Origin: an uncultured virus (IMG/VR IMGVR_UViG_3300007512_000010)
Taxonomy: Duplodnaviria > Heunggongvirae > Uroviricota > Caudoviricetes
IMG/VR virus record: IMGVR_UViG_3300007512_000010
Location: 62,001 to 118,970 of that record
Direction: 5' to 3' (one strand)
Length of the DNA: 56,970 bases
Part shown: in pieces, positions 26,328 through 56,787 of the stretch
Layout: every line of letters begins with the position of its first letter
Numbering within the stretch: the stretch's first letter is position 1
Notes under the pieces: generated by a model
The model's input: only the letters and a program-made list of their open reading frames with translations
What the model was told of the DNA's origin: nothing
Database searches by the model: none
Translations under genes and position numbers: made by a program

Positions 26328-26352
26328 GGGCTCAACCATTGTGGAGATAGAA

Positions 26353-27348
26353 ATGCCAAGCTTTTCAAATGTTTACGACCAGTATGACGATGAAGGACGC
26401 TTCCTTCGAAGGGAGCTTTCTGACAAGGGCGTTCCTGCAATTATTAAAGTTGCCGCAAACTTGTCGGAAGCAACGATTAAGCATGCTGAAGATTACGCTC
26501 TAGTTGCTGAAACTGAGCATGGTACGGAATACCGTTATCCTGTGTGTGACGCTGGGAACACCGTTGCATCAGCGATTTACTTCGCTGAGTACGGGGATTC
26601 TCTGCCTGGAGACCTCCGCAAGGAAGCTGCGAAGAAGCTGAATGAGGCCCTAGTCTCTTTTGGCTTTACGCCCCCTGAAGAACTCACTAAGACTGCCGCA
26701 ATTGAGGTTGGTTACAGTGGTGAGGGCGAGGATATGTCTCTTGAGACCCTGTTTGGGTTTACCGGCTCAGACGAGGACAACATGGAGTTGGTTGAGGATG
26801 CATTCAGCGGCCTCTCCCCAAGAGGAAAACGTCGCTTGGCTCTTCAGGTTAAAGAGGCAGGCGCAGAGTTCTCCGAAAAGCTGGCTAATTATGCTGCCGA
26901 TGATATCGGAAGTGACTTCAATCTTGCTCTCGATACAAGAAGACTCGTTCTTATGGAGGCCGACGCCATCATCGAATTAGAAGAGCTTCAGAAAAAGGCG
27001 TCCGCTGGGTTTGTTGGGGAGCCTTTGGCCGAAGCCCTCACAGAGTTTGATGAGAAGTACAAGATTACCCACCATTATAACAACGTAATATTGGATCCGT
27101 ACGCATCCGTATTTGGCTCTACTATTGAGAAGGCCGCAAACGTAGAGCGCCCGGTAGAGATTGGTGGAAACGAATATACATCCGACAGGATCGCTTCTTG
27201 GGTTACAGGTGGCGGAGCCTCACAACTAGAAGATGCTTTTGGTGAGGACTTCAAGGAGCAATTCCAGGCTGACCCAGCCACGGTGTTGTCCAGCCTACCG
27301 ACTACCCACAAGCAAGCAATCGCTCGGATGATTGATGAAGCCCATTAA
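26353..27348 (+). CDS. Acidic putative head/virion protein with multiple K-x-A motifs
   Basis: GGAG RBS; IKVAA, TKTAA, VKEAG, QKKAS, EKAAN; lies two genes upstream of the portal. Confidence 0.6.
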   Translation: MPSFSNVYDQYDDEGRFLRRELSDKGVPAIIKVAANLSEATIKHAEDYALVAETEHGTEYRYPVCDAGNTVASAIYFAEYGDSLPGDLRKEAAKKLNEALVSFGFTPPEELTKTAAIEVGYSGEGEDMSLETLFGFTGSDEDNMELVEDAFSGLSPRGKRRLALQVKEAGAEFSEKLANYAADDIGSDFNLALDTRRLVLMEADAIIELEELQKKASAGFVGEPLAEALTEFDEKYKITHHYNNVILDPYASVFGSTIEKAANVERPVEIGGNEYTSDRIASWVTGGGASQLEDAFGEDFKEQFQADPATVLSSLPTTHKQAIARMIDEAH

Positions 27349-36400: not shown

Positions 36401-36666
36401 CTTTATCACACGCTGCTGCCCTCAATCGTTCTGGCAAAATGAAAGCCCCGATCAGAGTGCAGCCGATGCTCCGTGGTATCGAGACACTTCCTCTGGATCA
36501 GAGTACAGACTGGATCGCTAGGCTTCAGTACCGAAAACTTAAAGAAACCTTTATTAGGGCTGCGAATGAGGGATGGGAGTCTGATCTTCACGGAACACAC
36601 CCCGCCCCAGGCATCGCTTATTCCGCTGAATTCGGTAAGCCTAAAGATAGCGGAGGCCCTTATTAA
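30433..36666 (+). CDS. rpoBC: DNA-directed RNA polymerase, fused beta-beta' single polypeptide (bacterial type, streamlined)
   Basis: Beta motifs: IDPVHTPEG, LIPFL.TDQANRA.M, GLVFEDG, GDKLTGRHGNKGV, NPSGVPGRINLGQ, YTLKL.H, GGAQRFGE, KSD. Beta' motifs: GGLFD, WGHIAL, VLPPIFRP, RSVIVP, RDPVLH, catalytic NADFDGD (34645-34665), bridge helix GARKGL, C-x6-C-x2-C, trigger loop GERGTQLSMKTFHTGG. Confidence 0.95.
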   Translation: MANVLDPQRVMKALEDGTVEKINSFFPLVGKKQTLVARNIYTTGDTDLDDIPSQKKARLRGRTWAQGVYGDFELVDNETGKVIDKVAKVKVAAVPKITRRYSYIVDGTEYQVDNQWRLKSGVYARRKANGELESQFNLAAGRGFRLGFDPARRRFLMGYGTSNVQLLPVLQALGIPDEDIRAAWGAELYARSVSDKKRGEVVKLAKALVRGAAPANDTEAAAIVKEAYDKTALLKDTTAITLGEGFDKVSGGALLASSRKLLAINRGEAEVDNRDSLRFKELWSIDNHIPERIGNSARRIQYKLGNNIDRKDSVRAIVTPDVFNIPIKTFFTSTSLSQQTSQVNPVDMIGGFLRTTIMGQGGISNEQAVSDDAKLIDSSFLGFIDPVHTPEGKRSGISGHLALGVKKDGTTPLITVYDTKSGAYVDKSPADLANAAIAFPDQYDFSGKKPKAVDSLVTVVRKDGGDPEKVAPNEVDYILRSPKGMFSITANLIPFLPTDQANRAGMATRHMEQAVALKDREQPLVQVVSGNPSKRFKTWENIVGSFTSHNSPISGTVLSVGATKIVLQAKDGSKVEMPLYDNFPLNDKKAFVSSTPLVKKGDTVKAGQTLADTNFTKDGTLSMGTNLRVGYIPYKGLVFEDGIVISETASKKLTSEHLHKNRAYVEKNMQVGLRKFRANFPGSVTDDNAAKLDEDGVIKKGQRVDPGDTLMTVLQKTEPSKEQAMLKGIHKSLVRPFKDRSVTWEKPYAGVVTDVVRNGREIMVYVKTEEPADVGDKLTGRHGNKGVITAVIPDEEMPRDAEGNPLQLILNPSGVPGRINLGQVLETSLAKVADKRGEPYAVDNFQASGGKKIVRVKEHTRTIQTKEGPKQITIKAHDREVGYQEQVKKVLAAEGVSETTELFDPVTGKSLGQVLVGKQYTLKLLHQIDKKLRARAHGYGHDYDANLVPKGGGETGGAQRFGELGLYAMLAHGATANIRDALTYKSDKQQDEIWTAVQTGQILPNPKPSFAYEKFLAYMGALGLNVEKEGNGLVVSPLTDKQILETSNGEITDGSRVIRGKDLKPEKGGLFDEDVTGGPGGNHWGHIALGTSMPNPMFEKGVRSLLGLTGKEYDSAIAGTHKDIVGPQGIIAALAALNVDEELASAKEQIKTARRGELDKLNKKIKYLLMLKKEGLSADKAYGISNVPVLPPIFRPITAMEGGDLNIDGTNMLYRDIAMLNQKLKEADGVLPESATAKLRGDLYNAVDALMGVSTPTEGAMTMDGQARPPGILTILSGRQSPKQSFFHKRILDRKQDISMRSVIVPDMDLHLDELGLPRKGAMKIYRPFVVKELVNMGYTPLKAREEIEKNSSLANRALEVAVNKRPVLFKRDPVLHKFGIMAFKPKLHDEKSIHIHPLVTGGFNADFDGDTMAIFVPVSQEAVDEAHKMLPSKNLFNPATGRVMYQPSLEGQLGLYLLTQMGKKTRTKFADAKEALAAAEAGDILATDVVSVGGLRTTAGRILFNNALPKKVQSEEILTDPKLIMGKGVLQNILRQVAVKSPAEFQATADKIKNLGFGHAYDTGFSFDLDDFNTLTELRNSRMKVARAKETAIRKKEKMKLISPSAAEAQIIDLYTKVTEDLSSEAKKILDKDGNKLRAMNNAGVKPAWSQLQQMLIGPMLLENASGRVIPVPVDRSYSEGLRSSDYWVASSGARKGLIEKVQSVSVPGALNKQIANTAISYVVTQNNCGTKRGIALDIGDSDLVDRFTAKAFKAGGSTVPAGTAITPALLSKLKASKVSKVVARSPMKCESKKGLCSHCYGLMDGGRPVEVGTNIGLIAGTALGERGTQLSMKTFHTGGVAGSSAGVVGGIDRISQLLKMPATLPNAAVLSPATAEVSKVTKSPVGGFDISIGNEDIYVPAGRTISIGVGDKVRKGQQISSGVIEPRDLLAKTNVDTVQAYIADEINKVYKSEGIKRRNIEVVTKAVTNLGRVTDPGDSSFIKNDYISLSHAAALNRSGKMKAPIRVQPMLRGIETLPLDQSTDWIARLQYRKLKETFIRAANEGWESDLHGTHPAPGIAYSAEFGKPKDSGGPY

Positions 36667-38712: not shown

Positions 38713-40683
38713 ATGGAACTTACCAGAAAATTAAAAGGACCACACTTCGAGAAGGTAGCTGCCAAGTTCCTTCTCGGGGATAACCCGTCCACTTACCCCA
38801 GTGAGTTGATCGCTCATCTGTACAAGCAGCACCCCTACCTGGGTAAGTATCAGGTGAACATCTCTGTCCAAGGGCAGGATGAGAGCCAAGGATACATGTA
38901 TGGTGTATTCCTCGTCAGCCAGCCCAGCGATGTTCCACCCCCAGAGGGAACACAGCAGATGGGACAGATGATTAGTCAGGGTCAACCAGAGCCAGATCCG
39001 AACAATAGTGTTCGTATCCCGATCATTGTGGAGAATAAGAAGGCGTACTCCTACGACGTTTTCATCACTCCCGATGGTAGGTTCTTGCCCCTAAACGAGA
39101 TGCGCGTTGCAGCGGCGATGTTTGATGCGGGTCCGTACTCCATCGCTCCTGTTCCCAAAGCACTAGGGGCGTCGGCTAACCAGAACGTTAACCCCGCTGA
39201 GCCCGAGGGTATGAGTGGTGGTGGTCCCCTTTCCCCAAACCAGTCAGTTAAGCAGGCTTCTGCATTTGCTGGTGTGTCATTGGGCAAAGAGGTGGTTGAG
39301 AAGTTCTTCAACAAGATTGCGGCTAGTGAGCGTCTTGTTGATGCGGCTGATCTAAATCCCGCGTTTTCATCAGTGTTGTCCAAGTTGGCACACTCCGTAG
39401 AAAACCAGCCCGTTGAGAGTGCGCCCACAACCTCTGATTTTGAGGCAGCGGTTGTCTGTAAAGTTGGCGGCGGCTACCTGATTAAAACCGCAAGCTCTAA
39501 CGGGTTTGAGGTTTCTACACACAAGCTCCGCAACAAGGACGCGGCGACCCTTCCCAGGGAGGTTCGAAATAGTGTGGTGAAGACAGGATCCGTATTATTA
39601 GCTGATAATACTGAAGCGCTACCTAAAATCGAGGTGACCAAAGATCTAGAGGTTATTGATGAAACCGGTGTGTTCTCTGTCCTAGATAAGTACGGCAGTG
39701 CGCGACGAGCCGCAGTGATCACCGATGTTCTCACCCTGGACGGGCGGGAATCCGACCTTCGTCTGGTTGTTGGGTCTAGCGGAGCCGCTTTTCAGGCTAA
39801 GGTAGCTGGTGTTCGTTGTGGGGATCTTGACCTAAACGCTCTCGAAGGCTCGGCCCCAATAGGGGAGGGAGTCTTTGTGTTTAAGACGGCAGGTAAGGTT
39901 TCGGAACCATTGACCGTAAACCACGCGGTGACGGATGCGAACGGGGAGACTTCGTACATCTACGAAACCCCCCTACAGGGACGGGGAACGCTCAAGCTGG
40001 CGTCGGTGCGGATTCCTGTCGGCCTTGGTGGGCGTGATTTCCTAATTCCCGAAGACAGTGTGTTTGTGCCTATGACCTTTAACGGGAGCTACCGGTCAGA
40101 CACCACGCAGATTGAGAAGATTTCGGCCAGAACCGACTATATCAATAAAGTTAAAATCATTAGCGATGGGACAGAATTTAGCTTTGAGGGAGCCCCGGTA
40201 AAAGATCTAGAGAAGAGGGCCTTCTTGAAGTTGGATGAGGCGCTTCTGGTACTGGGTGTTCTCGGAGATTCTTCAGAAGGAGCTATGACTAAGTTAGCTC
40301 ATGCGGCTGATAAGGGAGAAGAGGTTTTCGTCGCTAGTCGTAGGATTCTAGCGCCAACGATTGAGTTGGGCTCGAATGACGAAGCCGCGCAAATTGCGTC
40401 GGTGATTAGGATGGATTTGGTCAAGGAGGCTGCGGTTCTAAACAACTCGGAGACAGTTGACTCCGTATTATCACTTAACTTTATTACGCCAGAAAACGTC
40501 CAAGGATACTTGGATGCTCTACCTGTTTTTGAGGAATCTGCCTCTAAGCTGGCTGAGCTACTTGTTGGCGTTCGACTTGGTTTGTCAGATATTCCTGAGC
40601 CTGCGGTAGCGTCATCCCTTTCTGGCATGGAGCGTGCGATTACTGGGCTTAAGAAGCTGCAGATCAGGTCTAATACTATGTAA
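38713..40683 (+). CDS. Putative virion head protein with multiple K-x-A motifs
   Basis: AGGAG RBS; FEKVAA, VKQAS, NKIAA, SKLAH, IKTAS, LKLAS, EKISA, TKLAH, VKEAA, SKLAE. Confidence 0.6.
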   Translation: MELTRKLKGPHFEKVAAKFLLGDNPSTYPSELIAHLYKQHPYLGKYQVNISVQGQDESQGYMYGVFLVSQPSDVPPPEGTQQMGQMISQGQPEPDPNNSVRIPIIVENKKAYSYDVFITPDGRFLPLNEMRVAAAMFDAGPYSIAPVPKALGASANQNVNPAEPEGMSGGGPLSPNQSVKQASAFAGVSLGKEVVEKFFNKIAASERLVDAADLNPAFSSVLSKLAHSVENQPVESAPTTSDFEAAVVCKVGGGYLIKTASSNGFEVSTHKLRNKDAATLPREVRNSVVKTGSVLLADNTEALPKIEVTKDLEVIDETGVFSVLDKYGSARRAAVITDVLTLDGRESDLRLVVGSSGAAFQAKVAGVRCGDLDLNALEGSAPIGEGVFVFKTAGKVSEPLTVNHAVTDANGETSYIYETPLQGRGTLKLASVRIPVGLGGRDFLIPEDSVFVPMTFNGSYRSDTTQIEKISARTDYINKVKIISDGTEFSFEGAPVKDLEKRAFLKLDEALLVLGVLGDSSEGAMTKLAHAADKGEEVFVASRRILAPTIELGSNDEAAQIASVIRMDLVKEAAVLNNSETVDSVLSLNFITPENVQGYLDALPVFEESASKLAELLVGVRLGLSDIPEPAVASSLSGMERAITGLKKLQIRSNTM

Positions 40684-41501: not shown

Positions 41502-41808
41502 CGTTATAATTGAACCCGTGATTTTCACGGAATCCAAGACCAAGGTTCCAGGTGTTCGGGTGGAGTACTACATCTACGAGAGCGGGGTAAAGTTTCATAT
41601 TTGGGCTGACCCCGAGTTCCCTGACTGTCTTGAGTCCTGTATAAAAGAAGCATGGTCTAAATTCCCGGAAAAGTCTGTGATTGCAGAGTACGTGCCAGAA
41701 GTAGATAGCTGGTACGGGGAATTGAAGAATATTACTGTTGGCATATCTGACGTGCTTGCAGAAAGCCTTATCGCTAAGGTTGCTAAGGAGGTATCCAAAC
41801 ATGGCTAA
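41488..41808 (+). CDS. Hypothetical protein
   Basis: Probable ATG at 41488; overlaps both neighbours. Confidence 0.55.
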   Translation: MIPSNVIIEPVIFTESKTKVPGVRVEYYIYESGVKFHIWADPEFPDCLESCIKEAWSKFPEKSVIAEYVPEVDSWYGELKNITVGISDVLAESLIAKVAKEVSKHG

Positions 41809-42592
41809 ACGACAAGAGGCCCCTGGGTATCTGACAACCTTAGGCAAAGCCGCTCCCTTTTTTCTTGCTAAGTCCGTTTTGGGAGATCTTCCAAAAGGTG
41901 GGATTGAGAAAGCAATCGAGTTGAAACTAGGTCCCAAGAAGGTACCCCTACGGAAGGGCTTCATGAAGGGGATTTCTGGTAGGGGCTCTGGCCGTGCGAT
42001 TGGGGCAATGAGCGGAATTGTCACTGCTCCCCTATACCTAAAGAGTCTTAGCCTCTTAAAGTCTAAGAAGAAGAGCGACCGCAAGAAGGGGCTGGCCCTC
42101 CTAGTAGGGGTTACGAGCACTTTCACAGTACAGAAGGGGATGCTTGAGAGCATCGGTGAGCAGGGTGGAATCTCGAAAGCTATTCGACGCCGAGTTAGTC
42201 GCCTCCCTGCTAAAGCTTCTGGCACTTCTTTGAAGAAGGCCCTCGGTCTTGGGGTGGGCAGGCTCTCCTATAAGATCCCTTCCGCTTTGATTATGGCGAA
42301 GGGCCTCACAAGCGGTGGCGGCAAAGGCAAGGGTAAGAAGAATAAAGCTCTTATGTCCGCTGCCTTGGGCGGGGCTGGGGCTGGTGCGCTTAGCCGTGCG
42401 GGCGATACCATCATTAAGGAACTTACCGCGAAGTCAACCAGCAAGGCGTACAAGTTCAACCCAGGCATCTTCGGCAAGAAGATGATGGCGGGTGGTGTAG
42501 GCGGTGCAGCAGCAGGGGCGCTCGGTGGGCTAGTCCTATCCAAAGCGATTTCTGCAGCGAACAAGTCCTTGTCCGGTGGTAAGAAGAAGTGA
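41801..42592 (+). CDS. Highly basic Gly/Ala/Lys-rich protein with glycine-zipper hydrophobic segments (candidate internal/ejection protein)
   Basis: AAGGAGG RBS; GGVGGAAAGALGGLVL, AALGGAGAGAL. Confidence 0.6.
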   Translation: MAKRQEAPGYLTTLGKAAPFFLAKSVLGDLPKGGIEKAIELKLGPKKVPLRKGFMKGISGRGSGRAIGAMSGIVTAPLYLKSLSLLKSKKKSDRKKGLALLVGVTSTFTVQKGMLESIGEQGGISKAIRRRVSRLPAKASGTSLKKALGLGVGRLSYKIPSALIMAKGLTSGGGKGKGKKNKALMSAALGGAGAGALSRAGDTIIKELTAKSTSKAYKFNPGIFGKKMMAGGVGGAAAGALGGLVLSKAISAANKSLSGGKKK

Positions 42593-44515: not shown

Positions 44516-44729
44516 TTTTCACAAGCCCTCTTTTTGTATTTATGGAGACCCTGGCTCTCGGTATGTATTCACCAATGAACTCTTTTAAGAGCTTTTTATT
44601 ATGTTGTGATATTGGGGGCCACAGCTTAAGAACGTATGTGTTCTCGGCATCTTCTTTATAGGAAACAAGGTCGTTTCCAAGTGCCCTAGATAAGGAACCC
44701 ACTAAACTAGTTACGGTATCTTTGATCAT
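44496..44729 (-). CDS. Small hypothetical protein, antisense within the virion module
   Basis: Fills the gap between the helicase and terminase genes; protein-like composition. Confidence 0.4.
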   Translation of the reverse strand: MIKDTVTSLVGSLSRALGNDLVSYKEDAENTYVLKLWPPISQHNKKLLKEFIGEYIPRARVSINTKRGLVKITLRPR

Positions 44730-46371
44730 GTCTTTACTCGATGAACAATCAGCAGCTTTTGAGAGGGATAATAATCTCTTTCCTAGCGAGTTTGTATCAT
44801 CTTTCTTCAATATGCCCAGCTTGGGAGAGTTGGAGCATTTTTCGTTTAAAGGCAGGCGTTACCTGATCCCTATCTATGACACACCTTCCCAGAGACTGCT
44901 TCTTCAGTGTGGCCGACAGGTAGAGAAGAGCACAACCCTAGGGAATATTACGCTAACATACTCGACTTTGAGAAGGCACTTTAGGTCGCTGTTCGTAAGC
45001 CCCACTCAGCAGCAGACTGAAACATTCTCAAGGGATAGGATACAGACACCTATAGAACTCTCCCCCACACTACAAACTTTTGCAGAGGGAGCGAATACCA
45101 AGAACAACGTTCTGTACAAGAAGTATGTGACAGGCTCAGACATCACTATGCGGTATGCCTTTTTACACGCAGATCGCGTGCGCGGTATCTCTGCTGACAT
45201 GCTTTTGTTGGATGAGATTCAGGACATCCTTACAGACATCATCCCAATTATTGAGGAGGCGTTGTCGCACTCCCCGTTCAAGATTCTTCGCTACTCCGGT
45301 ACGCCGAAGAGCTTGGACAACACCATCAGCTACTATTGGAACCAATTCAGCACCCAAAATGAGTGGGTTGTTCCATGTGAGGGCTGTAACACTTGGAATG
45401 TTCTGGGAGAAGACAACATTGGTGCCCAGGGGTTGATCTGTAAAAAATGCGGGAGGGCCATACATGCGGATCATCCAAGGGCTCAATGGGCGTCCATGCG
45501 GTCACCCCAATGGCTGAAGCACCCACCGGTTACGACGCCTTTTGAGGGGTACAGAATCCCACAGTTAATTGCTCCTTGGGTGCGTTGGGACGATATTCTC
45601 GATAAAAGGAAACGGTACAGTCGCGCTCAGTTTTTTAATGAGGTTTTGGGCGTTGGTTACGATTCTGGTGAGAAACCTATCAACAAGGAATCTCTGATAA
45701 AGTGCTGTAATCAAGAACGACCAAACACACTGGAGTTCGCGACTAAATTCGTTAAGGGCCGTAATCGAAAAGTCTATCTAGGGATTGATTGGGGTACAGG
45801 AGAGAATACTTATTCCGTACTTGTTGCTGGGTGTTATATCGGCCGCATCTTTACTATCATCTACTGTAGACGGTATGAGGGTGAAGACGGCAGTCCAGAA
45901 AACCTTATGAACGACATTGCCAAGCTGATGGATAGATTCGAAGTTCGCATAGCTGGGGTTGACTACGGGGGTGGATTTGACCGTAATGACCGGCTGATAA
46001 GGCAGTTTGGGATTGCCCGTGTTGCGAGGTATCAGTACGTAAATGCTAAGAGAATCTACTTCGACAAAAGCCTCCATAGGTTTATGGTTAATAGGACGGA
46101 GGCGTTGATGGCGGTTATTAACGCAATTAATCGTGAGGACGAATTAGCCTTCCCTAAATGGGAAGATTTTGAAACACCCTTTGGAAGCGACCTCTTATCT
46201 GTATTTACAGAGTACAACGAGGCGCGAAGAACGACTATTATTAATAGGACACCGGGTACAACAGATGATACTTTGCACGCAATTACCTACTGTTTTCTGG
46301 CGTCTATGATAGAACACCCAAGACCTGATATTATTAGCCCGTCAGGGGATGATAAGCATGATAGAGGTTAG
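44728..46371 (+). CDS. terL: Terminase large subunit (lambda GpA-like)
   Basis: FSFKGRRYLIPIY, Walker A variant GRQVEKST, Walker B LLLDEIQD, SGTP coupling motif, CEGC/CKKC, FFNEVLG, nuclease LGIDWG, DDTLHA. Confidence 0.9.
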   Translation: MSLLDEQSAAFERDNNLFPSEFVSSFFNMPSLGELEHFSFKGRRYLIPIYDTPSQRLLLQCGRQVEKSTTLGNITLTYSTLRRHFRSLFVSPTQQQTETFSRDRIQTPIELSPTLQTFAEGANTKNNVLYKKYVTGSDITMRYAFLHADRVRGISADMLLLDEIQDILTDIIPIIEEALSHSPFKILRYSGTPKSLDNTISYYWNQFSTQNEWVVPCEGCNTWNVLGEDNIGAQGLICKKCGRAIHADHPRAQWASMRSPQWLKHPPVTTPFEGYRIPQLIAPWVRWDDILDKRKRYSRAQFFNEVLGVGYDSGEKPINKESLIKCCNQERPNTLEFATKFVKGRNRKVYLGIDWGTGENTYSVLVAGCYIGRIFTIIYCRRYEGEDGSPENLMNDIAKLMDRFEVRIAGVDYGGGFDRNDRLIRQFGIARVARYQYVNAKRIYFDKSLHRFMVNRTEALMAVINAINREDELAFPKWEDFETPFGSDLLSVFTEYNEARRTTIINRTPGTTDDTLHAITYCFLASMIEHPRPDIISPSGDDKHDRG

Positions 46372-46373
46372 TC

Positions 46374-47468
46374 ATGAGCGAATTTGAACAGTACTTGTCC
46401 ACAAAAGAAGACGCAGGGGTTACGCCCCATGAGTTGCGAAAAATGGGGGCGACCGCTGCGCATGCGTACATTCAGGAACAAAAGCCTCTGAATGACAGCA
46501 TCCTTGAGATGGTTAAAACCAGCAGCTTAAACCTAGAGCAGGTTAGGCGGATTGTTGAATACGCAAACAACGACACGTTTGGACACTTGTTCAAGGCTGG
46601 GCATGAGAAGAATATCACCTTCCCAATGGCTGACGCGTCAATTGTTATGCAGAAGAAGGGAGAAACCATGTCTAAGGTTGCTTCAAGAAAAGTGCTTCCA
46701 CGGGGACACTATATCCCTGGGCAGGAGTACGTAGACTTAGATGAAGCCTTTGGCGCAAAGGATTTCGAGAAGGCCGCAGAGGCTTCTGGTATTTCTGATT
46801 CTGAACGACACCGTTTAGGGGTAAAGTTTCTTGACCTAAGGGTGGCTCGTGAAAACCACGCGTCTGACGTGGACATTTTGGCAGACACCTTTGCGGTAAA
46901 ACTTTCAGCCCTAAAAGACCTATGCAAAGAGGCGCAGGCCGAAGGGTACTCCACCAGCACAATTGGTGCTGCCATTGAAGACGCCAACCCCTCTGAGGGC
47001 CTACTCGATGTTATTGAGATTGACTTTGGGGATAGGCTTGTAGAGTTCGGATGCAAAGAGAAGTTGGCCTTCCAGGGAATGGCAGTTATGCCAGGGAACC
47101 CAATTACTGGGCTGACCCAGGATTTAGAGGGTGTTTCTGGAAAGCTTGTGACTGCTCAGCAGTCTATGCATCGCGTACAGACTTCGATGACAGAACTTCT
47201 TGGGATTCTTCGTGGGCCAGACCCAGGCCACACAATGGCCAGTGGATTGTTCAATCCAGGCGGTATGGGTTCACAACCCGCCCCTCCACCTACCGGTGCA
47301 GCACCTGCCGCGCCGCCCTCCGGTGGTCCTCCTGCAGGAATGCCCTCCTCTCCTCCCCCTGAGGCTGCTGCTGCACCTGCGGGAGGGCCACCCCCTTCCC
47401 AGGGACCAGTATCTGGAGGCGCTCCCGGTGGCAAGGGCTTGGGTGCACTGTTTGGGGGTAAACGGTAA
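46374..47468 (+). CDS. Putative head protein with K-x-A motifs and a Pro/Gly-rich tail
   Basis: LN..I...LN.EQVRRIVEYAN domain; VKTSS, SKVAS, EKAAE, EKLAF; PPPEAAA tail. Confidence 0.6.
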   Translation: MSEFEQYLSTKEDAGVTPHELRKMGATAAHAYIQEQKPLNDSILEMVKTSSLNLEQVRRIVEYANNDTFGHLFKAGHEKNITFPMADASIVMQKKGETMSKVASRKVLPRGHYIPGQEYVDLDEAFGAKDFEKAAEASGISDSERHRLGVKFLDLRVARENHASDVDILADTFAVKLSALKDLCKEAQAEGYSTSTIGAAIEDANPSEGLLDVIEIDFGDRLVEFGCKEKLAFQGMAVMPGNPITGLTQDLEGVSGKLVTAQQSMHRVQTSMTELLGILRGPDPGHTMASGLFNPGGMGSQPAPPPTGAAPAAPPSGGPPAGMPSSPPPEAAAAPAGGPPPSQGPVSGGAPGGKGLGALFGGKR

Positions 47469-48127
47469 TGGAAGATCGTTTAGCCAAAGCGTGGGCAACA
47501 TTAGGGAGTAATGCGGGACCACCGGTTGATCTGGAGAAGCTCGCCATTGGCGGGCTCGTCAGTGGTGGCCTCCGTCTTGCTGGCCGTGGTAGGGGCGCAT
47601 TAAGAGCGGTTCCGGGTGTTGCGCGTCAAGTAGCTCGGCCTGTCTTACAACGGGGCGCACAAATAGCGGGCGCTGGTGTAGCGTTGGCTCCGGTGGCGAT
47701 GCGGGGCCTCTCCCATGTGGCTCCAGCAGCTAGGCAAGTTGCGACCCACGCACCCGGAGCAGCCGCGCATGGTAGTAGAGGACTAGCTCTTGTAGACCCG
47801 AAGGGTCAACCTGCCCCACCTTCTATGGGCGCGATGCCAAGCCCAGCTTCTCGCGCCTCGGCGGATCTAAAGAAAAGCCTTTTTGATTCCGCAGCCCCTG
47901 ATCAGATAGGAACCCAGGGTTCGGGCAGGCCTAGAAGAAGGGCGGCAAACGACAAAAGAAGAAGATTAGTCGTGCCCGGTGGCAGCACCCCTCCCGCACG
48001 TGGTGGTTTTGGTTCCAGCCCTGGCCCCGCAAGAGGGGGCGCTGCTGAAGAGACTCAGCGGCAGTTGGACGCTAGTCTCCGTGGCACAGTAATCCCCGCT
48101 TCTGCTAGAAACAGAGGTTTCGTATGA
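47468..48127 (+). CDS. Basic Ala/Gly/Arg-rich putative internal protein
   Basis: Acidic leader ending LEKLA followed by a very basic remainder. Confidence 0.55.
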   Translation: MEDRLAKAWATLGSNAGPPVDLEKLAIGGLVSGGLRLAGRGRGALRAVPGVARQVARPVLQRGAQIAGAGVALAPVAMRGLSHVAPAARQVATHAPGAAAHGSRGLALVDPKGQPAPPSMGAMPSPASRASADLKKSLFDSAAPDQIGTQGSGRPRRRAANDKRRRLVVPGGSTPPARGGFGSSPGPARGGAAEETQRQLDASLRGTVIPASARNRGFV

Positions 48128-48843
48128 GTTTAGTGCACACACTACCCGTGGCAAAGCGTTCGACACTTAACGTACGTCCCCATGAGAAGCAGCAAAACAA
48201 GCACAAGCTTGCTATGGAACTTCGAAAGGTTGCTGGCCCCGGTGAACAGGCTGGGGGGTGGGTTAATAGAAACATCCTCGATAGGAGTATCGGAGGACAC
48301 TCTCTTCGGTCGGTCACCCAAGGGGTTAACCAAGGTCTGTGGTCAGGCCCCTCTGAGCTAGCTGCTACTCCTTTTAGGAGAGGGGCCGATAAAGCCAAAG
48401 AGATCCTTTTAGGAAAGCGCTCCACGGAAGGCGTCCATGCAGGTAAACGTCTCCACTCTTTAGCAACGGGTAATGCGGCTAAAGACATAGCGGCTGGCAA
48501 TATTACACCTGTATCCAAAGAGGTCGCTGACGAGATTTTGTCTGGTAGAGCGAAGGGCCAAATAACCAAAGGAAGTGTGGGCGGGAAAACCGTCTACTAC
48601 AAAACCAAGTTTAGGCCGAAGGGTGTTGTTGGTTGGGGCATGAAAAACCCAGGCAAAATGGGCCTTGCGGCACTTGCTGCATACATGCTCTTGAAGCCAG
48701 AAGCTCGACAGACTGCTGGTAGCGTAGCTAGCGGCTTTGTACCCAGGGGTCCAAAAGGACCCACAGAAGAGTTCCAGCGGGAGTGGGCACCAAAACAACA
48801 ACAATCAGCAAGGCCTGCTCTTCAGCAACAGGCATGGGGTTAA
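48124..48843 (+). CDS. Basic putative internal protein with a C-terminal hydrophobic helix
   Basis: ELRKVAG near the N-terminus; MGLAALAAYMLL. Confidence 0.55.
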   Translation: MSLVHTLPVAKRSTLNVRPHEKQQNKHKLAMELRKVAGPGEQAGGWVNRNILDRSIGGHSLRSVTQGVNQGLWSGPSELAATPFRRGADKAKEILLGKRSTEGVHAGKRLHSLATGNAAKDIAAGNITPVSKEVADEILSGRAKGQITKGSVGGKTVYYKTKFRPKGVVGWGMKNPGKMGLAALAAYMLLKPEARQTAGSVASGFVPRGPKGPTEEFQREWAPKQQQSARPALQQQAWG

Positions 48844-48844
48844 A

Positions 48845-49957
48845 ATGGACATCACAACCAAAATAAGATTACTTGAGAAGCTTGCTCAGCCACCAATGCC
48901 CCCACAAGGAATGCCCCCACAGGGGCCTCCCCCCGAAGCGGCGGCTCAGGCAGGACCTCCACCAGAAGCCGCTGCCCCTTCACCAGAAGGAGGGCCTCCT
49001 CCGGGAATGGTTCCCAAAGCACCAGAAGATATGCCCGGTGGTGATCCTGAAGGTGCCGAAGAGAAGCTGAAGACCCTGATGGAGATCTTAGCTGACTCCG
49101 CTCCCGATGCCGTCAAGTTTGATGCGGGTAATTCAGCGGCTGGTTCTAGACTTCGTAAGAAGGCTCTCCAAGCTGCTAAGCAGTTGAAGTCTCTCCGTGC
49201 AGAAGTCCAGAGCACGAAAGGTGTCCGTAAAGAGGAGAAGGCCCAAGCCCTTGCAGCGATGATGCAACAACAGCAGCAGGCTGCTCAGGCACAAGCTCAA
49301 GCTGAACAGGCTCAGGCCCGTGCCCCCGCCGACAAGTTATTCCAGCCCAGTGAGGGTGGACAACCCCCGGCACCTGCCCAGGCCGCTCCTCAAGGAATGC
49401 CCGCCCAAATGCAACCAAAGATGGCTTCGCTCGATAAAGAAGCAGGTCGTCTACAGGCACTAAGGGCTGCACTTGGACGTCGAGTAGGTGGTTTTGGGAG
49501 ACGTTTTGGGATCAATGTTGATCCGTCGCAGGGTGGGATGTTGTCTCGCCGTGTAGCAGACCTGTCTACTGGCGAAAAGGTTCTGGGTCTTGGTCTGGGC
49601 GCTGCTGGCTTAACTGCTGGTATCAGGGGCGCTGACGCAGCCATTGATTCGATTGGAGGGCCTATCCGTCAACGGAAGGCTTTCAATGCGATGATGGATG
49701 AGAACCCCAACCTCAAGAAAGAAGACCAAGGCGACGTAAAGAAGATCTTCCGCACGCTGCACACCTTCAACCCCGACATGGCCAAGGATCCACTGGTAGC
49801 CGGGTCGTTCATGCGCCGATCCTTGCAATACAAGGATGAAGGAATCCAGCCGCAGGATGTGAAGACTTTAGCTGAGATCAACAAGATGAGGTCTGACTCC
49901 AGGGGTAAGGAATCTCTTCTTCAGGCAATGATGGGGGCTGCTGCCGGTGGCGGATGA
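48845..49957 (+). CDS. Modular head protein: Pro/Gln linker, Hc1 histone-like domain, TM-like helix and C-terminal helical domain
   Basis: Start revised to ATG 48845; DAVKFDAGNSAAGSRLRKKAL..KQLKSLRAEV; LEKLA, PKMAS, DKEAG. Confidence 0.6.
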   Translation: MDITTKIRLLEKLAQPPMPPQGMPPQGPPPEAAAQAGPPPEAAAPSPEGGPPPGMVPKAPEDMPGGDPEGAEEKLKTLMEILADSAPDAVKFDAGNSAAGSRLRKKALQAAKQLKSLRAEVQSTKGVRKEEKAQALAAMMQQQQQAAQAQAQAEQAQARAPADKLFQPSEGGQPPAPAQAAPQGMPAQMQPKMASLDKEAGRLQALRAALGRRVGGFGRRFGINVDPSQGGMLSRRVADLSTGEKVLGLGLGAAGLTAGIRGADAAIDSIGGPIRQRKAFNAMMDENPNLKKEDQGDVKKIFRTLHTFNPDMAKDPLVAGSFMRRSLQYKDEGIQPQDVKTLAEINKMRSDSRGKESLLQAMMGAAAGGG

Positions 49958-50681
49958 GGGTAAAACTACCCTGTATGAAAAGCTAACTGGGGCACCCGGA
50001 AAGGCTTTAACGTCAGGGGCCGTAACGGCTGGAACGCTTATCGCAATGCGAAAGGCGTTAGGCACCCGTGCGGCTCGTGCCATCACTAGCAAGGTTTTTG
50101 AGCGGGCTAGCCGTCTTCCCCTTAAAAGGAACAGACAACTAGAGCTTGGCTTTGGTCCATCTACAAGGGCCAATGCTGCGATAAATAAGACGCTTGCTTC
50201 TGGTGGCCTTCTAAGTAAGGGGAGTATAGGTACTGCTACCGCTCTTGGTGCGGGACTTTCTGGGTTGACTGCCAAGTTCGAGAGGAAAGCTTACGCCGAT
50301 AACTTGGCACATAAGATTCAGGCCGGTAAAAAACTCAGTCGCTCTGAGAAAGAGGCGTTGTCGCGGGTGGCGGATATCCGTAGATTCCCTAAGCGTTCTC
50401 GGATAAAGTCCACAGGCCTCCAAAAGGCAGAAGACATCTATTGGTCTCCCAAAAAGATGGGCTTAACAGCAGCAGCAATTACAGCCGTAATGCCGGGATC
50501 AGCGCTGGCTAGGGCGGGTGGAGCCGTGTTAAACAGTTCGACTTCCGCCGCAGATACAAAGTATAGAGGGTTTATTATGGCTAAGGCTCTCCGTGATAGA
50601 CTAGATAAGAAGCGAAAACTGCTCCCGAGCGAGCGCCGTCTTCTTAAGACTATCCAAGGGTTGGGAGCTTCGAATGCTTAA
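49947..50681 (+). CDS. Highly basic putative internal protein with hydrophobic Gly/Ala segments
   Basis: K/R-rich; GTATALGAGLSGL, MGLTAAAITAV; overlaps the protease start. Confidence 0.55.
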   Translation: MADEGKTTLYEKLTGAPGKALTSGAVTAGTLIAMRKALGTRAARAITSKVFERASRLPLKRNRQLELGFGPSTRANAAINKTLASGGLLSKGSIGTATALGAGLSGLTAKFERKAYADNLAHKIQAGKKLSRSEKEALSRVADIRRFPKRSRIKSTGLQKAEDIYWSPKKMGLTAAAITAVMPGSALARAGGAVLNSSTSAADTKYRGFIMAKALRDRLDKKRKLLPSERRLLKTIQGLGASNA

Positions 50682-52359
50682 GTTACTCACATTCCCCGGA
50701 TCAGATGAAGATGGAAACATCTTTGTGCAGGCCATTAATCCAACCGAGGGGTTGGTAAAGCAGGCCTCTCACTCAGACCTCCACGATACGATTAAAAGCC
50801 ACATTGATGGGATCAGTCCGTCAGACAAACACTTGTATGTTCTAGTTAATGCTCTCGGTGCCGGTGAGTATTACGGTAGTAATATCAATGGGGACTATTT
50901 TGAGGAGTCCGAACTCGCTCCCAAAACAGACACTGAGCTTTCGGGGTACAAAACGTTCAAGAAGTCTGGTGTGTACAGGCACCACAAAAACAAAGACATC
51001 AGCCGCTCTATGGGGGAGATTGTTTGTGCTTGTTACAACCCCGTTATGCACAGAGTCGAGTTGATCATTCGAATTGATCGAGAAAAAGCTTCCGAAGTGG
51101 GGCATGAGGATTTAGTTCGAAAGTTGGATGCTGGTGAGCATCCCGCTGTCAGTATGGGGTGTAAGGTAAAGTACGATGTCTGCTCGATCTGTGGGCATAA
51201 GTCCAAGACGAGAAAAGACTACTGCGTACACACCAAGACTATGATGGGCAAAATCTTTCCGGATGGTAGAAAGGTGTTTGTCTACAACCCCCGACCTAGA
51301 TTCTTTGACATTAGTTTTGTCATCATAGGGGCAGACAGAACTAGTTATGCAATGGCTAAAGTGGCTTCTGTCTTCGGTGGTTCTTCCGCCCTAGCCGCTG
51401 AAACTGGGGGTCTTCGGGATGGGGTTGCTCTTGAGTCTCTTCGGGAGAAGTTGGCTAACAAGAGGAAAACTTCTGAATTGTTGAAGCAGGTCCCCGCCTT
51501 GTCTGCGAAGCACATAAAGCCAGTTGCCGACACAGAACCAGATCTCAAGACCAGCCTTCTTGATAGATTAGCTAGGCATCCGGTAGAGAAAGTATTAACT
51601 ACTGCATCTGCTGGTGGAATTGTGTTAAAGCCTAAGGAGTATCAGAGAATAATACTCATTAGGATCGGAAGACCTAGTTTGGCAAATCGTCTCGACAATG
51701 CAGGACACGTATTCAATCCGTCGCCAATGGTGGATAAGAGCATCCGAATTGGTGCTCCATCTGACCATTCCTCTTTAATAAGAAATCTGTTATTAAATTC
51801 CGTACAACAACGGAGTATGTTTGAGCCCGTATTGCGCAAACGTATAATTATCATTAAATCCACAGGGGCTTCTACAAACCCCCAAGCACAGCGTATGCTG
51901 GGTATGCGGAAACTTGGAGAAACCAATGTTGATCTCACAGACGAAGAAAATGCTCTTCTTAGTAAGATCGCAGCAGGTTACAATGGGTACCGCGAACAAT
52001 TATTGGAGAAAATAGGCTCCATAGTTGAGGATATTACCAGAGGTGATATAAAGTTGCTTTCTACAATCGACAATGGCGTGGAACTAGAAGACGCATTTAT
52101 GGGACACGAACTTACCAAAGAGGGAAAAGGGCTACCTAGTGCTCTCTTGGGAGTGTTTCCACTTATGTATCTTTACGGGGCCAACGTTCGAAAGAAGCGA
52201 GGTTCCGGACAGGACATCAGCGCACTTGATCGATTTGTGGAGCGACATCCAATCTTGGCAACCTCTGTACTGGTAGGGCTGACTCGTCTAGGGCTTAAGG
52301 CTCATAGTAAGGGTCATCTCGGTAGAGCTTGGGAGAAGGCAATTGCTAAGATTGATTAA
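50674..52359 (+). CDS. Prohead maturation protease (HK97/herpes assemblin fold) with a Zn-finger insert and long C-terminal extension
   Basis: NINGDYF, YRHHKN (His), AVSMGC (Ser), CSICGH..YCVH, and FFDISFVIIGAD (compare HK97-type E-x-S-x-V..PA); upstream of the scaffold-like and capsid genes. Confidence 0.75.
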   Translation: MLKLLTFPGSDEDGNIFVQAINPTEGLVKQASHSDLHDTIKSHIDGISPSDKHLYVLVNALGAGEYYGSNINGDYFEESELAPKTDTELSGYKTFKKSGVYRHHKNKDISRSMGEIVCACYNPVMHRVELIIRIDREKASEVGHEDLVRKLDAGEHPAVSMGCKVKYDVCSICGHKSKTRKDYCVHTKTMMGKIFPDGRKVFVYNPRPRFFDISFVIIGADRTSYAMAKVASVFGGSSALAAETGGLRDGVALESLREKLANKRKTSELLKQVPALSAKHIKPVADTEPDLKTSLLDRLARHPVEKVLTTASAGGIVLKPKEYQRIILIRIGRPSLANRLDNAGHVFNPSPMVDKSIRIGAPSDHSSLIRNLLLNSVQQRSMFEPVLRKRIIIIKSTGASTNPQAQRMLGMRKLGETNVDLTDEENALLSKIAAGYNGYREQLLEKIGSIVEDITRGDIKLLSTIDNGVELEDAFMGHELTKEGKGLPSALLGVFPLMYLYGANVRKKRGSGQDISALDRFVERHPILATSVLVGLTRLGLKAHSKGHLGRAWEKAIAKID

Positions 52360-52459: not shown

Positions 52460-53113
52460 ATGAACGAATTGCTTGCACAGGCATACGGAACCGAGGCTAA
52501 CATTCAGGCCAACTCCGGTGACACGGAGAAGACTGCTGAGGCCGTCCTTTTGGAAGAACTTGAGAAGATCGCTACCGCTGAAGGTATCGACCTTAATGAG
52601 TTTGACGACAACGATATTCTTGAGATCATCACCGAGGCTATGGGTGAGACGGAGAAGACCGCCGCCGCTGAAGGCGACGAGACCACGGAGACCACGGAGA
52701 CCACTGAGGGTGGTGAGGTAGAGGAAGGCGAGGCCAAGTTGGCTGAAGCTGATTTCCTTGGCCGCACTATGGCTCATGCGTTCTACGATGAACTCACGTC
52801 CATTCAGACCGATGGCACTGAGAAGACTGCTGGCGCTCGTAAGAGCGACCACTTTCTGAAGACTGCTGGCGACGAGGCTGTAGCGGGTGAGCCCGAGATT
52901 AGCCCCGAAGTAATGCAGCAGTTTGAAGATGCTGCGCTGACTCGCGCCCAGGAGATCCTCGACTTCATCGATACCGATGGTACGTCGAAGCAGTCCTCTG
53001 CTTTTGACGACGAGGAGCTTGAGACGGCTGTGATGTCGCGTGCCGGTGAGCTTCTTAACGAAGCTGGCTACGACGTCAACGCTATCGCCCAGGCCATCTA
53101 CGGGGATCAGTAA
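52460..53113 (+). CDS. Very acidic scaffold-like protein, densely K-x-A-marked
   Basis: AGGAGG RBS; EKTAE, EKIAT, EKTAA, AKLAE, EKTAG, LKTAG, SKQSS. Confidence 0.6.
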   Translation: MNELLAQAYGTEANIQANSGDTEKTAEAVLLEELEKIATAEGIDLNEFDDNDILEIITEAMGETEKTAAAEGDETTETTETTEGGEVEEGEAKLAEADFLGRTMAHAFYDELTSIQTDGTEKTAGARKSDHFLKTAGDEAVAGEPEISPEVMQQFEDAALTRAQEILDFIDTDGTSKQSSAFDDEELETAVMSRAGELLNEAGYDVNAIAQAIYGDQ

Positions 53114-54987: not shown

Positions 54988-56181
54988 ATGTCTAGTGTAC
55001 CTAATGAAGTCCTCAACGAGCTTTTCGTTTCGAAACTCGATAGTGAGGCTGGTAAAGAAAAGATTGCTGCCCTAGGTGGTGATTACATTCGTGATCGTCT
55101 GCGTGAGGAGAGCTTTGCTCGCAAAGTCCTCCCCCCGAAGTCGGTTTCTCGCTCTGACCTTCAGGTCAGTGTTGCCCACGACACCCTGGTGAAGATCGTA
55201 GAGGTCGAACCCCAGAGCCGTGCCATGTCGATGTCTTTCCGAGGCCAGCCCTCGGTGAAGTACTACACTGGCCCGCGTTTTGAGGTTCCGTTCCACACGG
55301 TCGGTTCGCTCCGTTACGAGCAGACCGAGCAGGAGCTTATGGCCTACACGCTTCCGATCACCGAGATCATCCGTCGTAACATTGTTAACGACATCCAGGA
55401 GATCGAGGATCGGGTGTTCCTGAACCACATGGAGTCGGCTGTTCAGTCACTCCAGCAGGATGCACAGAGCCTTACCTTTGGCGCTGCTTACGCCGACGCT
55501 GCTGCCTTCTCGGCATGGAACGTCGAGAATAACAGCCTGTCTGAGGTCGGTAAGTGCAAGGGTGTTGATGTTCTCAACAATACTGCCGTAGCTAACGCTT
55601 CGGACAGCCTTGATGAGGATCTCGTCTACCCCATCCAGAAGGATGACCTGATTAAGCTGTTCCAGCTTTTCACTGGTACGGGTAACCGTGGTTCGCGTTT
55701 GCGTTGTGATCAGTTCCTGATCACTGACACTGACTTCGAAGACATCAACGCGTGGGCTCATAGCGATATGGGCGAGAAGGTCGGTGAGACGACCGTTGAC
55801 GGGTTCAAGTACAAGACGCTCATTGGGCGTCGCTTTGTGCGTACCCTGAAGACGGACATCCTCCGTCCCGGTAACATCTACGCGTTCTGCTCTCCGGAGT
55901 ACTTGGGTGGCTTCCTGCTTCTCAACAAGACCAAGTTCTTTGCCGATAAGGAACGGAACCGGGTCTCGTTTGAGGCATGGGAAGACATTGGTATGTACGT
56001 TGGTAACGTCGCTGGTGTGCGTAAGCTTGAGCTTTACGCCGGTGCGGTCGAGACCGTTGGTACTGCCGCTGACAATGCGACCACACGGGCCGCATACCTG
56101 CCCAAGGCAGAGGCCGATCTTGGTGCGAAGAACAACCTTGTTGAGGAAGGCGAAACCTTCCCCAGCATCTCGAACTTCTAG
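54988..56181 (+). CDS. Major capsid protein (HK97 fold)
   Basis: Strong AAGGAGG RBS; DYIRDRLREESFARKVLPP, IQEIEDRVF, CSPEYLG, AWEDIGMYVGN; follows protease/scaffold/decoration genes and precedes a stable hairpin. Confidence 0.8.
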   Translation: MSSVPNEVLNELFVSKLDSEAGKEKIAALGGDYIRDRLREESFARKVLPPKSVSRSDLQVSVAHDTLVKIVEVEPQSRAMSMSFRGQPSVKYYTGPRFEVPFHTVGSLRYEQTEQELMAYTLPITEIIRRNIVNDIQEIEDRVFLNHMESAVQSLQQDAQSLTFGAAYADAAAFSAWNVENNSLSEVGKCKGVDVLNNTAVANASDSLDEDLVYPIQKDDLIKLFQLFTGTGNRGSRLRCDQFLITDTDFEDINAWAHSDMGEKVGETTVDGFKYKTLIGRRFVRTLKTDILRPGNIYAFCSPEYLGGFLLLNKTKFFADKERNRVSFEAWEDIGMYVGNVAGVRKLELYAGAVETVGTAADNATTRAAYLPKAEADLGAKNNLVEEGETFPSISNF

Positions 56182-56199: not shown

Positions 56200-56245
56200 G
56201 TGGGCACCCCCTGGCTTCGGCTGGGGGGTGTCTCACCCCTTCATT
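56200..56245 (+). terminator. C(UUCG)G hairpin after the MCP gene; partial terminator or mRNA stabiliser
   Basis: GTGGGCACCCCCTGGC-TTCG-GCTGGGGGGTGTCTCAC followed by a weak pyrimidine tract. Confidence 0.65.
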
Positions 56246-56268
56246 TATTCATATTAGGAGCTAATAGG

Positions 56269-56787
56269 ATGCCCTACATCATTAAAAGTCTGGTCGGCAC
56301 GCGGAGAGATCCGAATCGTCGTGGGCATCGGAGCCCCTTCGTTGTTAGAAATTCCGCACGACTCCACATTGGAAAACGGTCCATTAAGGCCGGTAAGTCT
56401 GTGTCTATCAGCGACACAGTGTTTGAGAGAAACGAAGCCCAAATCACTGCCTTAGCTAAAGCTGGAATTATCGAGCTACGCAAACTGGGCGCAGCGAGTA
56501 ACTGGGAACCAGAACAGATCCACGTACCAGTAGAGCCACCGGCCGAAGAGGCACAAGAGGCAGCACCTGAAGAAGCTGCTGCTGAAGAAGCCCCGGTTGA
56601 GGCGGCTGCTGAAGAACCAACACCCGAGCCAGAGCCAGAGCCGGAACCCGAGCCCGAACCTGAGCCCGAACCTGAGCCCGAACCGGAACCGGAACCTGCT
56701 CCCGAGCCAGAACCAAAGAAGGCAGAAAAGCCTAAGAAGAAGGTTCAATCGAGGCGTCGGAAGCGCAAAAAGGCTGAGGACAAGTAA
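56269..56787 (+). CDS. Hypothetical virion protein with a (PE)n repeat and basic tail
   Basis: AGGAG RBS, ATG 56269; EAAA/PE repeats followed by KKKVQSRRRKRKK. Confidence 0.65.
   Translation: MPYIIKSLVGTRRDPNRRGHRSPFVVRNSARLHIGKRSIKAGKSVSISDTVFERNEAQITALAKAGIIELRKLGAASNWEPEQIHVPVEPPAEEAQEAAPEEAAAEEAPVEAAAEEPTPEPEPEPEPEPEPEPEPEPEPEPEPAPEPEPKKAEKPKKKVQSRRRKRKKAEDK
56623..56715 (+). repeat. Degenerate 6-bp coding tandem repeat (CCNGAR)n encoding Pro-Glu
   Basis: cccgagccagagccagagccggaacccgagcccgaacctgag... Confidence 0.85.

What the first reader, a model, noticed from the sequence alone, without database searches (positions are those of the whole stretch)
48845..49957. Hc1 histone-like domain embedded in a head protein between putative cleavage sites
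Seen: EKLKTLMEILADSAPDAVKFDAGNSAAGSRLRKKALQAAKQLKSLRAEVQSTK (~49061-49219) matches the D..KF..GN.AAG.R.RK....K..K..R.EV signature of Hc1/histone-H1-like proteins, which are known from Chlamydia and as small stand-alone genes in Bacteroidota. It is flanked by Pro/Gln linkers, with LEKLA upstream and PKMAS/DKEAG downstream, followed by a TM-like helix and a helical domain. Inference: a polyprotein whose processing releases a DNA-condensing peptide inside the capsid, or delivers it to the host.
Basis: partly seen in the sequence, partly recalled or inferred. Interest (0 to 1): 0.7.

Follow-up and report, generated by a model that had tools for sequence, protein, structure and literature searches.

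The report
Capsid-targeted Hc1 domain in phage precursor
A group of uncultured marine phages has inserted a small histone-like (Hc1) domain into a head protein between probable protease cut sites, so it is probably loaded into the virus particle, but it lacks the positively charged tail that compacts DNA in Chlamydia, and neither cutting nor DNA binding has been shown.

Summary
The Hc1 domain is real: Pfam PF07432 at aa 73-124, 36.9 bits against a cut-off of 23.5. The carrier is a conserved head-module protein, orthologous to gp221 of the cultured phage Arash, which was detected in virions. Only 7 of 69 distinct family members carry Hc1, forming one nested clade. The same Hc1 paralog also sits in three other precursors with K-x-A motifs. 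These 10 copies form one branch (99/94), apart from the stand-alone Hc1 that this genome also keeps. K-x-A motifs mark capsid, protease and scaffold-like proteins, so LEKLA and DKEAG are credible prohead-protease sites; PKMAS scores poorly. 'DNA-condensing peptide' is not supported. The domain matches the dimerising N-terminal half of chlamydial Hc1 and has no Lys-rich tail, and the predicted released piece has net charge -1. The 'TM' helix is below threshold. Best reading: a head-loaded, protease-released dimeric Hc1 cargo, possibly ejected like T4 internal proteins; cutting, packaging and DNA binding are inferred. Stand-alone phage Hc1 is in print, and this scan noted the K-x-A code before on other DNA; the head-targeted paralog was not found in my searches.

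The parts
48845..49957 (+). 370-aa head-module precursor (P0001): leader, Hc1 insert, conserved core; orthologue of Arash gp221 and Vibrio phage D69 VPHD69_0269
   Evidence: core HMM E 6e-11, syntenic; E 1.2e-7
48845..48886 (+). 14-aa N-terminal leader ending in K-L-A; probable capsid-targeting propeptide and first cut site
   Evidence: K-x-A in the first 30 aa of 61 of 66 family members against 3 of 26 replication-block proteins; site score 4.3
48887..49030 (+). Pro/Gln-rich linker 1, poorly conserved
   Evidence: 35% mean identity among 7 fused proteins
49031..49057 (+). Conserved MPGGD cap in front of the domain
   Evidence: 94% mean identity; GG(D/H) form also in two other carriers
49061..49216 (+). 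Hc1 domain (Pfam PF07432), two-helix hairpin, predicted homodimer, net charge +4; no Lys-rich tail follows
49220..49426 (+). Gln/Ala-rich stretch and Pro/Gln linker 2 ending in QPK-x-A (present in the fused proteins, but a poor fit to the site profile)
49436..49444 (+). K-E-A motif (DKEAG), probable second cut site at the start of the mature core; also present in the nearest Hc1-free relatives and in D69
   Evidence: site score 3.1, 0.8-4.8 in all 7 fused proteins
49565..49942 (+). Conserved core: Gly/Ala-rich helix (about 49589-49645, not a canonical TM segment) and a small helical domain of no named family
44722..46371 (+). Context: terminase large subunit
   Evidence: PF05876, phrog_675
50674..52359 (+). 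Context: head maturation protease, with K-x-A near its N-terminus and just after the protease domain; the presumed cutting enzyme
   Evidence: phrog_18299 E 1.5e-12
52460..53113 (+). Context: acidic scaffold-like protein dense in K-x-A/S
   Evidence: 7 motifs against 1.0 expected
54988..56181 (+). Context: major capsid protein, K-x-A at residues 25-27
   Evidence: phrog_2522, NF042927; motif in 16 of 16 distinct N-termini

Best explanation
The gene encodes a head precursor. Its short leader takes it into the prohead (inferred). The phage's maturation protease cuts at K-x-A after residue 14 and after residue 200 (inferred; the bond after Ala rests on analogy with herpes-type proteases, recalled). 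That frees the conserved core and an 18-kDa piece that holds a folded Hc1 hairpin between flexible arms (domain shown; dimer predicted). The piece has no good internal site, so it should stay whole in the mature head. It is a dedicated head-targeted paralog, kept beside the ordinary stand-alone Hc1. It most likely acts as a small dimeric nucleic-acid or nucleoid-protein binder, using its conserved Arg/Lys face, that travels with the genome and acts at the start of infection, like T4 internal proteins. It is not a polycation that compacts the genome in bulk.
For: Domain over cut-off in all 7 fused and 3 other-carrier proteins. Insert gained once, nested among Hc1-free forms (SH-aLRT 94). Conserved as strongly as the core (76% against 75%; linkers 35-55%). 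All 10 fused copies form one branch (99/94) although they sit in four layouts, among them leader plus Hc1 alone (P0038). That leader type starts three unrelated small genes in this genome and a run of genes in a relative. A stand-alone copy is kept at G000:C1:7833-8021. K-x-A: 54 against 39.1 expected in this head module (2 of 500 shuffles), 46 against 21.0 in Arash and 51 against 22.4 in D69 (0 of 500 each), not enriched in control blocks; kept at the capsid propeptide in 16 of 16. Arash gp221 was detected in virions, 8 peptides and 355 spectra (PMC10585845, table passage). Homodimer model 0.61 against best control 0.00; the mark was reached by 20 of 30 solved pairs and 1 of 23 single chains; runs agree in at least 90% of contacts, pLDDT at least 79. 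K91, R102, K105, K112 lie outside the predicted interface and are conserved.
Against: No cut, packaging, ejection or DNA binding has been measured. Arash gp221 is listed at 100% sequence coverage, which does not fit complete removal of a leader (the preparation also held many enzymes, so uncut material is possible). One fused protein (P0007) has K-L-S, not K-x-A, at the leader. The site profile was trained on K-x-A sites and compared with only 34 background sites. Enrichment in this genome's head module is modest. In Chlamydia this half of Hc1 is the dimerisation half, not the DNA-binding half (PMC2848022). Arash and D69, the cultured relatives, have no Hc1 insert. The host is unknown.
Confidence: 0.42

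Rival explanations
1. Assembly aid: the Hc1 hairpin is used only as a dimerisation module that helps pack the precursor into the prohead core; after cutting it is inert or discarded.
For: The domain is the dimerising half of chlamydial Hc1 (PMC2848022); dimer predicted; the released piece is neutral to acidic like scaffold material.
Against: 62 of 69 family members do without it. The leader-plus-Hc1-only protein P0038 has nothing else to dimerise. Exposed basic residues are kept.
Confidence: 0.2
2. One reading: the released piece condenses or organises DNA inside the capsid.
For: Domain net +4 to +6 with a conserved basic face; the same role was suggested, untested, for stand-alone Hc1 of moraphages (PMC12619734, passage).
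Against: No Lys-rich tail; piece net -1, relatives -2 to -6. Neighbouring head-module proteins are far more basic (+19 to +42) and fit charge neutralisation better. Most relatives package similar genomes without the insert.
Confidence: 0.13
3. K-x-A is a binding or sorting motif rather than a cut site here; the protein stays whole and Hc1 tethers the core (with its Gly/Ala helix) to DNA or to a partner.
For: 100% coverage of Arash gp221 in virion MS; K-L-S variant in P0007; no measured cut.
Against: The motif sits where propeptides end: capsid N-terminus (16 of 16), both sides of the protease domain, many copies in acidic scaffold-like proteins. Unrelated modules are exchanged at these motifs. 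The same Hc1 occurs without the core.
Confidence: 0.15
4. Passenger: a chance capture in a region of the gene that tolerates inserts, with no role.
For: The stretch between leader and core varies freely in length and content across the family.
Against: 76% identity, equal to the core and well above the linkers; full-length domain over cut-off in all 10 copies.
Confidence: 0.05

Closest known systems
Chlamydial Hc1 (HctA), Pfam PF07432, NCBIfam NF051889
   Same: Shares the conserved N-terminal domain (Pfam over cut-off; weak NF051889 match) and probably its dimerisation.
   Different: No Lys-rich DNA-binding C-terminus; far under the HctA cut-off (16.8 against 100 bits); embedded in a phage head precursor.
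Stand-alone Hc1 of aquatic phages (moraphages, PMC12619734) and of Bacteroidota
   Same: Same tail-less domain of about 60 aa; 35 of 37 viral loci with Hc1 hold it as a 57-80 aa gene; this genome has one too; Bacteroides thetaiotaomicron and a Mucilaginibacter MAG have it.
   Different: The copy here is a separate paralog fused behind a head leader; the passages read in that paper describe no fusion or processing.
T4 internal proteins IPI-III and Alt with capsid targeting sequence, cut by gp21; SPN3US ejection proteins cut by gp245
   Same: Short N-terminal leader ending at a motif shared with capsid, protease and scaffold-like proteins; unrelated cargos behind one leader (PMC7411985, passages).
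   Different: Motif is K-x-A, not a cut after Glu (T4 rule recalled); no sequence match to T4 proteins in Pfam or PHROGs; cargo lies between two sites inside a larger precursor.
Salmonella phage Arash gp221 and Vibrio phage D69 VPHD69_0269
   Same: Orthologous core, same place before the protease gene, K-x-A leader and second site; gp221 found in virions.
   Different: No Hc1 insert; 179-183 aa; function unknown.

Membership tests
Pfam PF07432 (Hc1 domain) | Score over the gathering cut-off across the model | tested here: met
   36.9 and 42.1 bits against 23.5, positions 2-54 of 57
Pfam PF07432 (Hc1 domain) | Same predicted fold as other members | tested here: met
   Helices 4-21 and 34-61 of a 68-aa model, pLDDT 74.6; TM 0.88/0.95 to an Hc1 cluster, both predicted models
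Chlamydial HctA (NF051889) | Full-length match over the cut-off | tested here: not met
   16.8 bits against 100
Chlamydial HctA (NF051889) | Lys-rich C-terminal DNA-binding domain | tested here: not met
   Domain is followed by a Gln/Ala stretch; aa 15-194 net -1
Chlamydial HctA (NF051889) | N-terminal dimerisation | tested here: inconclusive
   Model supports a homodimer, 0.61 against control 0.00; prediction only
Chlamydial HctA (NF051889) | Binds and compacts DNA | not testable with these tools
   Needs EMSA or a compaction assay
T4-type capsid-targeted internal (ejection) proteins | Short N-terminal leader ending in the motif shared with capsid and protease | tested here: met
T4-type capsid-targeted internal (ejection) proteins | Cut after Glu by a gp21-type rule (recalled) | tested here: not met
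   The conserved motif is K-x-A; works like, is not a member
T4-type capsid-targeted internal (ejection) proteins | Leader removed by the prohead protease; protein kept in the head and ejected | not testable with these tools
   Only indirect: Arash orthologue in virion MS, at 100% coverage
mReC phages (PMC7481178) | Multi-subunit RNA polymerase beta and beta-prime | tested here: met
   2077-aa protein at 30433-36666 matches several RNA polymerase PHROGs
mReC phages (PMC7481178) | Capsid in PF07068 and terminase in PF03237 | tested here: not met
   Capsid has no Pfam hit at E 0.1; terminase is PF05876. Not filed as mReC; Arash-like head module instead

The most novel reading that the evidence does not exclude
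One lineage of marine phages has turned the tail-less Hc1 domain, an almost unstudied bacterial and phage protein, into a capsid-loaded effector: a second copy was fused behind a K-x-A leader, shuffled among at least four precursor layouts, freed by the head protease and injected with the genome, where the dimer binds phage or host DNA, or pairs with the host's own Hc1, to reshape the nucleoid at the start of infection.
Probability: 0.25. Interest if true: 0.75.

Novelty: new variant of a known kind. Interest (0 to 1): 0.5.

Why it matters
Tail-less Hc1 genes are common in aquatic phages and present in Bacteroidota, and what they do is unknown. A paralog that evolution has repeatedly placed behind a capsid leader says the domain is useful inside the particle or in the first minutes of infection, which narrows the question. 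The precursor also shows how new head cargo can be added by dropping a module between two protease motifs, and the cultured relatives Arash and D69 allow the cutting rule to be tested directly. It does not show a phage histone that condenses the genome.

Tried and rejected
Word-index search with the 58-aa domain found no candidates; the exhaustive search did (55 hits). No Hc1 match among cultured phages by tblastn, none for the core by tblastn (the HMM did find Arash and D69), no solved relative by sequence for the domain and no meaningful one for the protease. Fold searches were uninformative: hairpin best Z 5.1 (rmsd 3.5, 66 aligned), no viral hit under E 0.001; core best Z 5.7 (rmsd 2.5, 54 aligned), one uncharacterised phage protein. 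The Atlas gave only leads under 0.9 for the core (tape-measure-like) and no feature hit for the domain; the phrog_777 'major head protein' hit (E 0.004) lies over low-complexity sequence and was set aside. The tree used a wrong core piece for P0004 and dropped 22 rows; it was redone and only that tree is used. In one search the pattern-based count for the protease C-boundary (12 of 16) includes one misplaced window; three divergent proteases really lack the motif there. No promoter or terminator excess. No RNA holder listed. No DNA was obtained for the other fused or other-carrier proteins, so their gene context, their stand-alone copies and dN/dS are untested; their assignment to this lineage rests on shared leader and modules. 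P0035, P0036 and P0037 look like truncated or aberrant forms on short contigs and were left out of counts; P0002 is this gene from a later start. Simple duplication of the genome's own stand-alone Hc1 was not favoured: a starred branch separates the two sets, but the alignment has only 62 columns. The primary paper on Hc1 domains (PMC177758) was not held; I rely on passages in PMC2848022 and PMC3469542. Literature searches that found no report of a fused or head-targeted Hc1 or of a K-x-A rule; subscription papers and the supplements of the Arash and moraphage papers were not seen and may bear on this.

Full report
Setting. The window is bases 62001-118970 of a 119-kb virus record, about 67% complete; complete relatives with terminal repeats are 173-181 kb. 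It is held by marine and seawater metagenomes of two studies (possible source left out). The gene lies in a plus-strand head module: terminase large subunit (44722-46371), the query (48845-49957), head maturation protease (50674-52359), acidic scaffold-like proteins and the major capsid protein (54988-56181). The only cultured phages with a related capsid protein were Salmonella phage Arash and three Vibrio phages. A 2077-aa RNA polymerase recalls the mReC phages, but the capsid and terminase families differ from those given in PMC7481178 (parts 1-2 of 6 read), so I do not file it there.

The observation. The 370-aa protein matches Pfam Hc1 at aa 73-124 over the curated cut-off (36.9 bits against 23.5). 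It folds as a two-helix hairpin, and the Atlas model aligns with an Hc1 cluster at TM 0.88/0.95. A contig from a second study spans 49066-49604 without differences. The Gly/Ala helix is not a canonical membrane segment (hydropathy 1.08).

The carrier. A search with aa 190-370 gave 33 proteins, 6 with Hc1 on record, one of them this gene. Pooling these with loci from two collections gave 69 distinct cores; 7 carry Hc1. A terminase or protease homologue lies in 68 of 69 loci. The 7 form one branch (SH-aLRT 94, quick tree) nested among Hc1-free forms, and the sister group keeps the K-x-A site before the core: the insert was gained. Arash gp221 (E 6e-11) and D69 VPHD69_0269 (E 1.2e-7) are syntenic orthologues without the insert. 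Arash gp221 was found in purified particles (8 peptides, 355 spectra, 100% coverage; PMC10585845, table passage). The core has no named family or clear fold match.

The insert is under selection and mobile. Among the 7 fused proteins the domain is 76% identical, the core 75%, the linkers 35-55%. The exhaustive search gave 55 hits: 47 short stand-alone proteins (median 63 aa), 5 forms of the fusion and 3 other carriers. One carrier, P0038, is a 19-residue-or-so leader ending in K-L-A followed by Hc1 alone; the same leader type starts three unrelated, basic small genes in this genome and a run of genes in a relative. P0043 and P0090 place Hc1 behind other modules, one of which recurs in the longer fused proteins P0005/P0006 and inside a leader in a relative. 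All 10 fused domains form one starred branch (99/94) in a 68-row tree with few columns. This genome also keeps a stand-alone 62-aa Hc1 at G000:C1:7833-8021, as do 5 other relatives among 23 records searched, many of them fragments; these fall apart from the fused set. Outside this lineage Hc1 is a small free gene: 35 of 37 viral loci.

The cut sites. Plain K-x-A occurs 54 times in 18 head-module proteins (query excluded) against 39.1 in shuffles (2 of 500 as high), against 35 versus 30.9 in the replication block and 35 versus 28.2 in the tail block. The signal is stronger in Arash (46 against 21.0; control 14 against 13.8) and D69 (51 against 22.4; tail 4 against 9.9). The motif is kept at the capsid N-terminus in 16 of 16 distinct sequences, near the protease N-terminus in all 33 rows and after the protease domain in 31 of 32 rows shown (counted by eye); two further divergent proteases lack the second one. 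A leader K-x-A is in 61 of 66 carrier proteins against 3 of 26 controls. Against a flank profile from 63 sites, LEKLA scores 4.3 and DKEAG 3.1 (1 of 34 background sites as high), PKMAS -10.4 and the K-K-A inside the domain -5.5; the profile is descriptive, as it was trained on K-x-A sites. This is the pattern of T4 and SPN3US, where the prohead protease trims capsid, scaffold and itself and removes short targeting leaders from ejected proteins (PMC7411985, passages). No cut is measured, and the 100% coverage of gp221 counts against complete trimming.

What the piece can do. In Chlamydia the conserved N-terminus of Hc1 dimerises and the Lys-rich C-terminus binds DNA (PMC2848022 and PMC3469542, passages). 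The phage domain corresponds to the N-terminal part of the 121-position HctA model and is far under its cut-off. A homodimer is supported by modelling: 0.61 against best control 0.00, a mark reached by 20 of 30 solved pairs and 1 of 23 single chains, contacts at least 90% in agreement, pLDDT at least 79. The domain is net +4 to +6, with K91, R102, K105 and K112 conserved outside the predicted interface, so some nucleic-acid binding is possible. But aa 15-194 is net -1 (relatives -2 to -6), whereas four neighbouring head-module proteins are +19 to +42. Bulk condensation is therefore the weaker reading.

Mechanism and odds. Shown: the domain, its gain, its conservation, its reuse behind leaders, the positional conservation of K-x-A. 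Inferred: loading into the prohead and cutting (about 0.75 together), retention of the 18-kDa piece, and a role as a small dimeric binder acting with the genome at or after ejection (0.42 overall). Rivals: assembly aid 0.2, uncut tether 0.15, in-capsid condenser 0.13, passenger 0.05.

Novelty. Stand-alone Hc1 in large aquatic phages is in print, with genome compaction suggested but untested (PMC12619734, passages and section 11). Earlier AI notes of this scan describe the K-x-A code on other genomes; I had reached that reading before looking and tested it here. My searches found no account of a head-targeted Hc1 paralog. It is a new variant of a known kind: T4-like leader cargo with an unexpected passenger. 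Interest 0.5; higher if ejection and a target are shown.

Noticed in passing
G000:C1:7833-8021 (outside the window; L084 1489-1677): Second, stand-alone 62-aa Hc1 gene right after a cluster of leader-bearing small genes; same position in at least one complete relative (L080 11279-11458).
   Followed up: yes
G000:C1:5848-7614; L080 5518-8775: Small, very basic proteins (net +15 to +23 in G000) that share one N-terminal leader ending in K-x-A but have unrelated bodies; at least seven such genes in a row in L080. Better candidates for charge neutralisation in the head than the Hc1 piece.
   Followed up: partly
P0005, P0006, P0043, P0090; L080 7005-7613: A second mobile module of about 55 aa (ends in H-x-G-E-x-V-V-P) moves among the same precursors and has even entered a leader; no Pfam name was returned for it.
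   Followed up: partly
window 30433-36666: Single 2077-aa RNA polymerase with beta and beta-prime parts in one frame; Arash has it as two genes and carries both in particles.
   Followed up: partly
window 41738-42592, 47468-48843, 49947-50681: Four highly basic Gly/Ala-rich head-module proteins of no known family (net +19 to +42) flank the query.
   Followed up: no
window 49031-49057: The Met of the MPGGD cap is invariant in all 7 fused proteins; an internal start is conceivable but no ribosome-binding site was tested.
   Followed up: no
window 26341-27348 and 38713-40683: Two further proteins rich in K-x-A/S (8 against 1.8; 13 against 3.8 expected), probably more protease substrates; 28001-30004 looks like a portal by position but had no PHROG hit.
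   Followed up: partly
window 56200-56787: Protein after the capsid gene with a long Pro-Glu dipeptide run and a basic tail.
   Followed up: no
L078: A contig labelled Klebsiella pneumoniae MAG holds a stand-alone Hc1; the label may be a binning error (not checked).
   Followed up: no
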